64,000 nucleotides of DNA from Octopus vulgaris. Taxonomy: Eukaryota. Below the pieces are notes generated by a model. The model saw only the letters and a program-made list of their open reading frames with translations, ran no database searches and was not told the DNA's origin. This document shows positions 1 through 40,546 of the stretch, in pieces (positions within the stretch are counted from its first letter, which is position 1; each line of letters opens with the position of its first letter). A program made the position numbers and the translations under genes. Location of the stretch: positions 6,138,001-6,202,000 of the forward strand of contig OX597837.1 in NCBI GenBank assembly GCA_951406725.2, given 5' to 3'.

Positions 1-267
1 GAAGAGAGGGAGAGAGAGCGACTTTTATCCAATCTCGTTGCAATATCAGCGAGATATTAATAATCTGTATTTTCCCCGATATTTATATTTTCTCAACAAA
101 AGCTGGAAAACTGTCACTACAACAGAGATATTTAATTTGTCACGATAAATTTGCAGAGGTGAAAAACTTAATAGAGAAATAAAGAAACGATAATAAATTC
201 TGGGTAATTATAATAGACTGGATATATCTACGAGCTGCGTGTGCGTGTATATGTATATATAAACACA

Positions 268-579: not shown

Positions 580-655
580 GACTTACACACACATACCTCC
601 TCTTGCATTCTCCTGTCTTTAAAAGAACTTTTCTTCACCCATTCCCTTCCGGTCA

Positions 656-870
656 TTCAAAATGTGACCGCGTGTGTACCGTTGGCGATTTTTTCCCTCC
701 GTCTTCCCTTCTTTGGATCTTTCCTTTTCCTATGTTTCTGACGAAGAGCTCTGCTCGAAACGTTAAACCCTCCTTCTTTCCTTTTTTCCTGAGCGTCCAA
801 TAATACTATACTTGTTCCACGTCCTTGCGTTGTTGTGTTTTCTCTTTGTGTTTTCATGTTTGGATTAACT
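656..870 (+). mobile_element. Non-autonomous Penelope-like/retrozyme element, family A (hammerhead-bearing), 3' end at (TA)n
   Basis: Near-identical copies at 6946-7148 (+) and 40302-40512 (-), related copy at 24033-24280. Ends GATTAACTA(TA)n and contains a hammerhead core. Confidence 0.75.
734..768 (+). ncRNA. Minimal type I hammerhead ribozyme
   Basis: GTTT-CTGACGA-A-GAGC-TCT-GCTC-GAAAC-GTT-AAAC: stem I GTTT/AAAC, stem II GAGC/GCTC, self-complementary ACGT as helix III. Predicted cleavage after 764. Confidence 0.75.
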
Positions 871-6166: not shown

Positions 6167-6443
6167 TCACACTATCATCCACACGTCTATACATGCACAC
6201 ACGCACACCTCAAGGTCACTAGTCCCCTTCCACACGCGCATACACGCTCTCACATACACACGAACGCGCACCTTCGCTTTGGTATCATCATTACTTTATT
6301 ATCTCCCCTTCTTCCTATCTCTCTTGTGTGACTCCTCTGTCCGGCATTCGCCATGATAGATCGTTAGCCACTATATCATTTTATATTTTCTCTCCGTGTG
6401 TCTTACTTCAACCTTTTCCCCATCCGGACCTTGTCTTTCTTCT

Positions 6444-6478
6444 CTTTCTGACGAAGTGTCAAGATCGAAACGTTATAC
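6444..6478 (+). ncRNA. Degenerate minimal hammerhead motif in a Penelope-like element (about 6200-6590)
   Basis: CTGACGA-AGTGTCAAGATC-GAAAC-GTTA. Core intact, stem II weak. The element runs into (TA)n at about 6588. Confidence 0.5.
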
Positions 6479-6738
6479 ACCCACTCTCGTTTTTTCCATC
6501 TTATACTGGGCGCCCATGTGTAGGTCCTTTTGACTTTTGTTGTTTTGTTCTTTCTTGTTAGTTGCTTTTAATTTTCGATTTGCCTATGTATATATATATA
6601 TATATATTATATAATTAGATGTAAAAAAATAATATAAAATTATACAATGTAATATTTTGAATTCGCCTTAAATGGTCCTTTTACATACTGAACACTTGGT
6701 GAAATTGATTAATTAATTAATTTTACCCTCAATTGTTG

Positions 6739-6945: not shown

Positions 6946-7147
6946 TGACCGCGTGTGTACCGTTGGCGATTTTTTTCCTCTGTCTTCCCTTCTCTGGATC
7001 TTTCCTTCTCCTATGTTTCCGACGAAGAGCTCCACTCGAAACGTTAAACCCTCCTTCTTTCCTTCTTTCCTGAGCGTCCAATAATACTATATTTGTTCCA
7101 CGTCCTCGCGTTGTTGTATTTATTTGTGCTTTCTTGCTTAGATTAAC

Positions 7148-7148
<1 letters not shown>
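6946..7148 (+). mobile_element. Hammerhead element family A, copy 2 (core CCGACGA, motif 7015-7049)
   Basis: Homologous to 656-870, with (TA)n-type arrays on both sides. Confidence 0.75.
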
Positions 7149-23624: not shown

Positions 23625-24495
23625 TGTGGCTGTGTGATAAGAAGCTTGCTTCCCAACAACATCGATCTTGGTTCAGTCCCACTGCGTGGTACCTTGAGCG
23701 AATGTCTTCTACTAAAACCTCGGACCGACTAAAGCCTTGTGAGTAGGTTTGGTAGACGGAAACTGAAAGAAGCCCGTCGTATATATATAAAATGTGTGAA
23801 GGCGCATGGCTTAGTGGTCAGTGTGTTGTACTCATGACTGCAAGATCGAGGTTTCGATTCACAGACCGAGCATTGCACTGTGTTCTTGAGCAAAGCACTT
23901 CATTTCACGTTGCTCTGTGAGCATTTCGTAATCTGACATCTGACACACGGTGCACCTCAACAGGTAACGTCGATTTGATGAAGGGAGTGAGCTTATGTGA
24001 AATTAAACATTTGATCACTATAAACAATCATCTGTGTGGATCGTTGGCGATCTTTTTGCTCCGTCTTCCTCTGTCTCCTGTTTCTGAAGAAGAGCTTTGC
24101 TCGAAACATAAAACATCCTTGGACTTTCCTCTGTCTCCTGTTTCTGAAGAAGAGCTTTGCTCGAAACATAAGACACCCTTCCTTTCCTTCCCTGAGCGTC
24201 TTATTAATACTTTGTATGTACCACGTCCTCGCGTTGTTGTTTGTTCTTGTTGCCATTTTTTCTCCGTTTTTAAAAATTAATTTTGTGTATGTGTTTCTCC
24301 CCCACCACCGCCGTTTGACAACCAATGCTGGTGTGTTTACGTCCCCGTAACATAGTGGTTCGGCAAAAAGAGAACGAAACGATAAGGACCAGGTTTTAAA
24401 AGAAAATGCCCTGGGGTCAATTTAATTTGATCGACTGAAACCCTGCAAGGCGGTGCCCCAGCATGGCCACAGTCAAATGACTGAAACAAGTAAAA
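23625..24495 (+). mobile_element. SINE S2 with a nested S3 SINE (23801-24030) and hammerhead element (24033-24280) in its internal microsatellite
   Basis: S2 head at 23625-23780 and S2 3' half at 24285-24495. Confidence 0.8.
24079..24175 (+). ncRNA. Tandem pair of minimal hammerheads, 60 bp apart
   Basis: TGTTT-CTGAAGA-A-GAGC-TTT-GCTC-GAAAC-ATA-A(A/G)ACA at 24079-24115 and 24139-24175. Confidence 0.7.
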
Positions 24496-40301: not shown

Positions 40302-40507
40302 TGCTAATCCAAACAAGAAAGCACAAAAAACACAACAACGCGAGGACGTGGAACAAATATAGTATTATTAGACGCTCAGGAAAGAAGGAAAGAAGGAGGG
40401 CTTAGCGTTTCGAGCGGAGCTCTTTGTCGGAAACATAGGAGAATGAAAGATCCAGAGAAGGGAAGACAGAGGAAAAAAATCGCCAACGGTACACACGCGG
40501 TCACATT

Positions 40508-40512
<5 letters not shown>
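40302..40512 (-). mobile_element. Hammerhead element family A, copy 3 (decayed core CCGACAA, motif 40400-40434)
   Basis: Reverse complement of 656-870, with (TA)n on both sides. Confidence 0.75.

Positions 40513-40546
<34 letters not shown>

What the first reader, a model, noticed from the sequence alone, without database searches (positions are those of the whole stretch)
656..870. High-copy SINE-sized family built on a 35-nt minimal hammerhead (family A)
Seen: four related copies in 64 kb (656, 6946, 24033, 40302), each about 200-250 bp, three ending at (TA)n, with no pol III A/B boxes evident. Helix III is only ACGT with no loop. Known: such minimal PLE hammerheads are thought to cleave as dimers. 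Inference: a very abundant non-autonomous PLE derivative that would normally be mislabelled as a SINE or unknown repeat.
Basis: partly seen in the sequence, partly recalled or inferred. Interest (0 to 1): 0.7.

Follow-up and report, generated by a model that had tools for sequence, protein, structure and literature searches.

The report
Penelope end-repeats carrying a mutated hammerhead
This short repeat, present in at least 14,000 copies, is the clipped-off end of a protein-coding Penelope-type jumping gene rather than a SINE; most copies begin at one spot, likely where the RNA starts, and about three in four carry a change in the hammerhead ribozyme core that is predicted to weaken self-cutting.

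Summary
The repeat and its 35-nt minimal hammerhead (window 734-768) are real. It is not a free-standing SINE-like family: the 215 bp are the pseudo-LTR (pLTR) of an autonomous Penelope-like element (RT + C-terminal GIY-YIG, Neptune-type linker). The same unit flanks the ORF on both sides in 8 of 16 fetched loci, and window copy 1 keeps 75 bp of its 3' UTR. At least 13,872 copies exist, against 54 pLTR-to-5'UTR junctions. Solo and ORF-linked copies mix within every subfamily. Two features stand out. First, 5' ends are not random: 56 of 100 copies taken in genome order start within 16 nt of one site (likely the Pol II start), and only about 3 start at the ribozyme cut site. Second, the dominant lineage, ORF-linked copies included, has U4C in the catalytic core (65 of 88). 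Cleavage, start site and transcription are untested. Single minimal hammerheads from truncated Penelope elements are published (PMC4209133), and this scan noted similar hammerhead/Penelope families on other DNA of this genome. Verdict: new member of a known kind, with a useful natural U4/C4 pair.

The parts
581..655 (+). Last 75 bp of the autonomous element's 3' UTR, attached to copy 1 (this copy is a longer 5'-truncated insertion)
   Evidence: colinear with ORF-linked loci L063, L162, L167, L168 at 91-93%
656..870 (+). pLTR copy 1 (element positions 1-215); most genomic copies start at positions -3 to +12
734..768 (+). 35-nt minimal type I hammerhead: stem I 734-737/765-768, C3-A9 738-744, extra A 745, stem II 746-749/753-756, G12-A14 757-759, palindromic ACGT 760-763, U17 764; predicted cut between 764 and 765
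   Evidence: sequence; hammerhead numbering recalled; same architecture described in PMC4209133
871..890 (+). (TA)n target/tail at the 3' end
   Evidence: 95 of 100 copies have (TA)4 at the 3' end
6946..7148 (+). Solo pLTR copy 2, starting near position 7-10 inside (TA)n; U4C core and a stem II mismatch
24034..24247 (+). Copy of an older sister pLTR family (73-79% identical); 60-bp internal duplication gives two cores (24084, 24144), both with ACAT
40305..40513 (-). Solo pLTR copy 4, starting at position 0 inside (TA)n; U4C and G8A

Best explanation
Family A is the hammerhead-bearing pseudo-LTR of an autonomous Neptune-type Penelope-like retroelement, and most copies are likely reverse transcripts of short, uncleaved RNAs that start at a promoter inside the pLTR. 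Shown: the unit flanks an RT/GIY-YIG ORF, copies end at a fixed 3' base in (TA)n, their 5' ends pile up at positions -3 to +12, and the dominant lineage has U4C. Inferred: the element's endonuclease nicks (TA)n, the RNA's UUAUAUA end primes reverse transcription, and the RT runs to the 5' end of an RNA that Pol II started near position 0. An RNA with one loopless hammerhead would not self-cleave efficiently, and U4C would weaken cleavage further, so the ribozyme is copied intact as a passenger. A few percent of copies may come from cleaved RNA.
For: Identity: 18 of 30 ORF-start loci carry the unit on the same strand about 250-350 bp upstream of the ATG, with one fixed junction. 8 of 16 fetched 10-kb loci read pLTR-ORF-3'UTR-pLTR. 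L175 holds an 816-aa open frame with GVAMG and YIDD, a CSRSRCNTC linker and LIYCIKC..YIG; its Pfam RVT_1 and GIY-YIG hits are below cut-off, but 528 relatives were found and the best 120 listed carry RT-type Pfam domains. An inverted truncated copy abuts a pLTR-5'UTR unit at L097. 5' step: of the first 100 copies in genome order, 56 start at -3..+12 and 5 further upstream; the stop rate rises from 0.4% to 14% per nt. Genome-wide exact patterns give 13,872 (positions 142-170), 4,993 (9-33), 491 (-9..14) and 54 junctions. D. virilis Penelope transcripts start inside the pLTR from an internal promoter (PMC2377424 passages). Shared ancestry: the solo/linked label changes 18 times on an 89-row tree, at least 5 forced by well-supported branches. 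U4C: 5,934 vs 1,969 exact 34-nt matches, 65 of 88 unbiased copies, 11 of 12 pLTRs upstream of an ORF. U4C considerably decreases activity in vitro in a viroid hammerhead (PMC3088659 passage). Hammerhead reading: in 14 non-family-A loci, stem II pairs 29/42 vs 23.0 shuffled (33 of 5000) and stem I 37/56 vs 28.4 (31 of 5000); position 17 is never G in 93 copies.
Against: No start site or cleavage was measured. The initiator-like TCATT and the small hairpin at position 0 are not kept in all subfamilies, and 5' ends smear over 16 nt. Many upstream pLTRs of full-length copies reach far beyond position 0 (to -1076), so other templates or template jumps exist. Solo copies are somewhat closer to each other than to the linked sample (0.027 vs 0.035; 18 label changes vs 28 shuffled). 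That fits some re-amplification from solo copies, but also the biased linked sample. The hammerhead fold is not the predicted minimum for the monomer (-3.8 vs -7.7 kcal/mol, z -1.3) or the dimer (-8 to -11 vs -25). Four of the 14 covariation loci belong to one family. C4 copies are only slightly less diverged than U4 copies (2.1% vs 2.8%). The unbiased sample comes from the first 23 Mb of one chromosome and needs an exact 29-nt match.
Confidence: 0.7

Rival explanations
1. Solo copies keep an internal Pol II promoter and amplify on their own as a SINE-like non-autonomous family that borrows the Penelope enzyme.
For: Solo copies outnumber ORF-leading junctions about 250 to 1. 56 of 100 keep the 5' end. 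The tree label is clustered, and only 9 of 53 solo copies are at least as close to a linked copy as to another solo copy.
Against: Every main solo haplotype has an ORF- or UTR-linked counterpart. The one well-supported solo-only clade shares its diagnostic bases with ORF-linked L167, which the anchor pattern missed (compared by eye). The other apparent solo clade contains L243, a long copy mislabelled as solo.
Confidence: 0.2
2. The 5' pile-up is an RT roadblock on the full-length RNA (hairpin or pyrimidine tract at the UTR/pLTR border, plus TA/TG microhomology), not the RNA's start.
For: A 7-bp hairpin CGGUCA(U)/(G)UGACCG spans position 0 in copy 1. Common start positions 0, 7 and 8 offer AT/TG microhomology with the target.
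Against: Stops lie in the hairpin loop, not at its 3' base. The hairpin is weakened or lost in the C4 subfamilies that give most copies and is no more stable than shuffles (z -0.47). Richer microhomology in the CA-rich UTR yields few ends there.
Confidence: 0.25
3. The ribozyme cuts tandem transcripts, the RNA circularises, and copies come from rolling-circle reverse transcription (the published model for PLEs and retrozymes).
For: Upstream pLTRs of variable, more-than-unit length. A minor cluster of 5' ends lies at 109-114, at the predicted cut: 22 of 36 distinct loci, 16 of 25 direct (TA)4 junctions, p about 1e-5. Model in PMC4209133.
Against: A circle has no end at position 0, where most copies stop. 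Only 3 of 100 unbiased copies start at 109-115. That cluster can also come from TA microhomology at 109-110 or from RT stalling at the ribozyme's 3' edge. No tandem pLTR pair among 100 copies. U4C in 11 of 12 upstream pLTRs.
Confidence: 0.1
4. Solo units are left by recombination between the two pLTRs of full-length insertions, like solo LTRs.
For: Direct repeats flank the ORF. Solo pLTRs were ascribed to recombination or deletion in a rotifer (PMC3846280 passage).
Against: It would need more than 13,000 former full-length insertions against 54 junctions now. The 5' ends of solo copies do not match the widely spread 5' ends of upstream pLTRs.
Confidence: 0.03

Closest known systems
Minimal type I hammerheads in pLTRs of metazoan Penelope-like elements (Cervera and de la Pena 2014, PMC4209133; read parts 1-2 of 4)
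   Same: Loopless palindromic helix III, short helix I, extra base between 9 and 10.1, G10.1-C11.1. Found in both pLTRs and mostly as single dispersed motifs that the authors call probably truncated PLEs.
   Different: In the parts read they report a U3-A8 core variant, not a U4C majority lineage, and no fixed 5' end of solo copies. Helix II here has 4 bp rather than 7-8.
Neptune/Nematis-type EN+ PLEs (Craig et al. 2021, PMC8557442; introduction and passages)
   Same: RT followed by a Cys-rich linker and C-terminal GIY-YIG with CxxC, partial tandems forming pLTRs, inverted truncated copies, microsatellite targets.
   Different: Truncation is described as extensive and variable; here it has a sharp step. 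The 3' UTR is long (about 1.7-3 kb) and CA-rich. Clade not tested with a labelled tree.
D. virilis Penelope internal promoter (Schostak et al. 2008, PMC2377424; passages)
   Same: Transcription starts inside the pLTR, upstream of the hammerhead.
   Different: Start site measured there, only inferred here; no intron shown here.
Animal non-LTR retrozymes (Li, Clavereau and Pollet 2026, bioRxiv 10.64898/2026.07.22.740005, parts 1-3 of 5; PMC7229834, search listing only)
   Same: Type I hammerhead, pLTR-related sequence, dispersed monomers.
   Different: Retrozymes are defined by tandem units. Here 0 of 100 copies are tandem and the unit is the pLTR of a co-resident autonomous element.

Membership tests
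EN+ Penelope-like element (pLTR of) | Single ORF with RT and C-terminal GIY-YIG endonuclease | tested here: met
   (Pfam scores below cut-off; motifs and relatives clear)
EN+ Penelope-like element (pLTR of) | Partial tandem: the same repeat before and after the ORF, upstream copy of variable length | tested here: met
EN+ Penelope-like element (pLTR of) | Hammerhead motif inside the pLTR | tested here: met
EN+ Penelope-like element (pLTR of) | Fixed 3' end, truncated 5' ends, inverted truncated copies | tested here: met
   (L097)
Neptune clade | CX2-5CxxC linker between RT and EN; microsatellite target | tested here: met
   CSRSRCNTC at 684; (TA)4 at 95 of 100 3' ends. A linker zinc-finger motif is shared with Nematis
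Neptune clade | RT phylogeny with named clade members | not tested
   no clade-labelled references were returned
Minimal type I hammerhead | Core CUGANGA / GAAA / NUH | tested here: inconclusive
   met in window copy 1 and 1,969 genomic 34-mers (includes sister families); U4C in 5,934 and in 65 of 88 unbiased copies
Minimal type I hammerhead | Stems I and II with compensatory changes | tested here: inconclusive
   across 14 other-family loci: above shuffles; within family A: stems change at background rate
Minimal type I hammerhead | Self-cleavage, as a dimer | not testable with these tools
   needs an in vitro assay; folding energies do not favour the active fold
SINE (Pol III type) | Internal A and B boxes, tRNA/5S/7SL head, no internal T runs | tested here: not met
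Non-LTR retrozyme | Tandem units, each with a hammerhead | tested here: not met
   0 of 100 copies have a second anchor-matching same-strand copy within 450 nt
Non-autonomous PLE derivative | Lineages evolving apart from the autonomous element | tested here: inconclusive
   mixed in all main subfamilies, with some clustering; linked sample small (36) and biased

The most novel reading that the evidence does not exclude
The hammerhead acts as a brake on the element's own short RNAs. A lineage that took U4C stopped cutting them, so 215-nt Pol II transcripts from pLTRs, solo copies included, became the main retrotransposing species: a promoter-plus-weakened-ribozyme 'Pol II SINE' born from a Penelope pLTR.
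Probability: 0.2. Interest if true: 0.7.

Novelty: new member of a known kind. Interest (0 to 1): 0.4.

Why it matters
The role of hammerheads in endonuclease-bearing Penelope elements is stated to be unclear (PMC8557442 passage). This family offers a natural pair that differs at one catalytic-core base (U4 vs C4) inside one retroelement, with the predicted weaker form three times as common and present beside ORFs. It also gives a genomic read-out of template ends: most at a presumed start site, a few percent near the cut site. Both can be tested directly. For annotation, tens of thousands of SINE-sized repeats in this genome are pLTRs of a Penelope element.

Tried and rejected
Rfam scan: the listed matches are microsatellite hits to miRNA models. 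Expression: no RNA holder listed; the four runs laid are contigs whose RNA status is a guess, so they cannot show starts or cleavage. Intron idea (GTGTGT/GTGAGT at position 17, pyrimidine tract, AG at 90-91, 75 nt as in D. virilis): no such joint among those listed, and the donor is lost in one subfamily; not supported. Pol III SINE: rejected. Initiator/DPE match at position 0: not conserved across subfamilies (motifs recalled). The first tree was discarded because flanks of truncated copies were aligned; it was redone on trimmed copies of at least 150-165 nt (89 of 173). The idea that cut-site-starting copies belong to one subfamily: 14 of 21 vs 6 of 15 in the same search, not convincing. Selection on the core among copies: A sites 1/309 vs 8/280 (p 0.016) but only five comparison sites, and C and T sites show no difference. 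No ORF fragment of the element lies in the window. Lunse et al. 2017 (dimer cleavage of PLE hammerhead variants) is not held; I saw only its citation in a review, and it may already list U4C. Paper searches found no description of this family, of a fixed solo-pLTR 5' end, or of a U4C PLE lineage. Supplements were not opened; the repeat libraries of PMC13282606 and PMC8557442 may already hold this element.

Full report
Observation. The window is AT-rich, microsatellite-rich DNA from a 2.8-Gb genome in 227 contigs. Earlier notes call it an octopus; I did not test this. Four related stretches lie at 656-870, 6946-7148, 40305-40513 (minus) and 24034-24247. The first three are 91% alike and end in (TA)n; the fourth is an older sister family. 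Bases 734-768 form a 35-nt minimal type I hammerhead with an extra A after A9 and a loopless ACGT helix III; the predicted cut is 764/765 (numbering recalled). Only copy 1 is canonical. Copy number is at least 13,872 (exact 29-nt pattern, control 0) and about 28,000 from 300 kb of arbitrarily placed stretches (3 loci; 95% range 5,800-82,000).

What it is. Flanks of the 30 best copies showed a fixed 3' end and, in 6 of 30, shared sequence running further upstream. Walking upstream led through about 1.7 kb of CA-rich 3' UTR into a broken RT/GIY-YIG ORF in L063 and L070. A search with the start of that ORF gave 30 loci, and 18 carry the same 215-bp unit about 250-350 bp upstream of the ATG on the same strand. 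Of 16 such loci fetched at 10 kb, 8 read pLTR-ORF-UTR-pLTR and 2 more do so in damaged form. L175 holds an 816-aa open frame with RT motifs, a CSRSRCNTC linker and a GIY-YIG domain with CxxC. Its Pfam scores are under the cut-offs, but it has 528 relatives, 40-58% identical among the 120 listed. This is an EN+ Penelope-like element of Neptune type by linker and (TA)n target (PMC8557442); the clade was not tested on a tree. Window copy 1 begins at 581 and is 91-93% identical to ORF-linked loci. Family A is therefore the pLTR.

5' ends. I took the first 100 of the 13,872 matches in genome order (chromosome C1, first 23 Mb). Their starts are: 3 upstream of -20, 2 at -12, 56 at -3..+12, 19 at 13-40, 10 at 41-88, 3 at 89-108, 3 at 109-115 and 4 at 116-141. 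The stop rate jumps from 0.4% to 14% per base. Whole-genome pattern counts agree: 4,993 for positions 9-33, 491 for -9..14, and 54 for the pLTR-to-5'UTR junction; the patterns differ in length and CpG content, so the ratios are rough. 95 of 100 copies end in (TA)4, none is followed by the 5' UTR and none is in tandem. Internal T runs and the missing A box argue against Pol III. In D. virilis the Penelope transcript starts inside the pLTR from an internal promoter (PMC2377424 passages), so I infer a Pol II start near position 0. This is not measured, the local motifs are not conserved, and an RT roadblock remains possible.

Cut site. Among (TA)4-flanked copies that start between 89 and 114, the first 100 rows give 36 distinct loci. 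22 start at 109-114 and 14 at 89-104 (two loci that the script misaligned were placed by eye). For direct junctions, counted by hand, the figure is 16 of 25 (p about 1e-5). This may mark a few percent of cleaved templates, but TA microhomology at 109-110 and stalling at the ribozyme edge predict the same.

Solo versus linked copies. Diagnostic haplotypes of solo copies recur among UTR- or ORF-linked copies (173 copies). On a tree of 53 solo and 36 linked copies the label changes 18 times (shuffled 28.3; at least 5 changes forced by well-supported branches). The classes are mixed but partly clustered. One apparent solo clade holds a mislabelled long copy (L243). The other matches ORF-linked L167, which the anchor missed. 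Independent amplification from solo copies is neither shown nor excluded.

The ribozyme. Thirty loci from a pattern that excludes the family-A stem (711 matches, control 6) held 16 family-A or close relatives, which I set aside, and 14 others. In those 14, stems II and I pair above shuffles (29/42 vs 23.0; 37/56 vs 28.4), although four belong to one family. Within family A the stems change at background rate and position 17 is never G. Predicted minimum-energy folds are not the hammerhead fold, for monomer or dimer; low in vitro activity of such motifs is published (PMC4209133). The commonest form has C in place of U4: 5,934 vs 1,969 exact 34-mers (the second count includes sister families), 65 of 88 unbiased copies and 11 of 12 pLTRs upstream of an ORF. 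U4C considerably lowers activity in vitro in a viroid hammerhead yet permits infectivity (PMC3088659 passage), so C4 may be weak rather than dead. U4 is inferred to be ancestral from the hammerhead consensus and from most sister families, though one sister copy also has C4 (L026). C4 sits in a CpG, so some U4 copies may be reversions. C4 copies are only slightly less diverged (2.1% vs 2.8%).

Mechanism. Shown: structure, 3' end, target, 5' step, U4C share. Inferred: nicking of (TA)n, priming on the UA-rich RNA end, copying to the 5' end of a short Pol II RNA, and escape from cleavage because one loopless hammerhead needs a partner and U4C weakens it.

Comparison and verdict. Cervera and de la Pena already describe thousands of single minimal hammerheads per genome as probably truncated PLEs, and Li et al. 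note that most PLE insertions keep one terminal repeat. A repeat annotation of Octopus vulgaris lists Penelope-like families and does not use the word ribozyme in its main text (passages). My searches found no report of this family, of a fixed solo 5' end or of a U4C majority, but Lunse et al. 2017 and all supplements were not seen. New member of a known kind; interest 0.4.

Noticed in passing
window 6270-6590 (+), core at 6448: A second, more distant pLTR-like family with its own minimal hammerhead (stem II GTGTC../GATC, ACGT helix III), a CA-rich upstream part and a (TA)n end; its upstream part matches L072 and L080 at 85%.
   Followed up: partly
window 24066-24188: A 60-bp tandem duplication places two hammerhead cores 60 nt apart in one copy; both have ACAT, so helix III is no longer palindromic.
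   Followed up: no
L149 about 2264 on the minus strand; L167:1965-2800 contigs: ORF sequence is joined directly to pLTR position 0 in L149. Four low-depth contigs join 5' UTR positions back to pLTR positions -2..+10 (runs not on record as RNA). This fits template jumps from an RNA end near position 0.
   Followed up: partly
L161:7225-8094: A full-length element is followed by two near-identical solo pLTRs separated by (TA)n: either a local duplication or repeated insertion into the tail.
   Followed up: no
L069:4435-6994: Another Penelope-like family: an inverted pLTR (75% to family A) ahead of an RT/GIY-YIG ORF.
   Followed up: no
subfamily of L164/L166 (124C/130T): This C4 subfamily often has C17, giving a GUC cleavage triplet (7 of 19 C4 copies), and some members have a strong splice-donor-like GTGAGT at position 17.
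   Followed up: partly
genome-wide: 711 further minimal hammerhead cores; about half of the 30 examined belong to unrelated families with stems such as GGAC/GTCC, GGAT/ATCC and GGCTG/CAGCC.
   Followed up: partly
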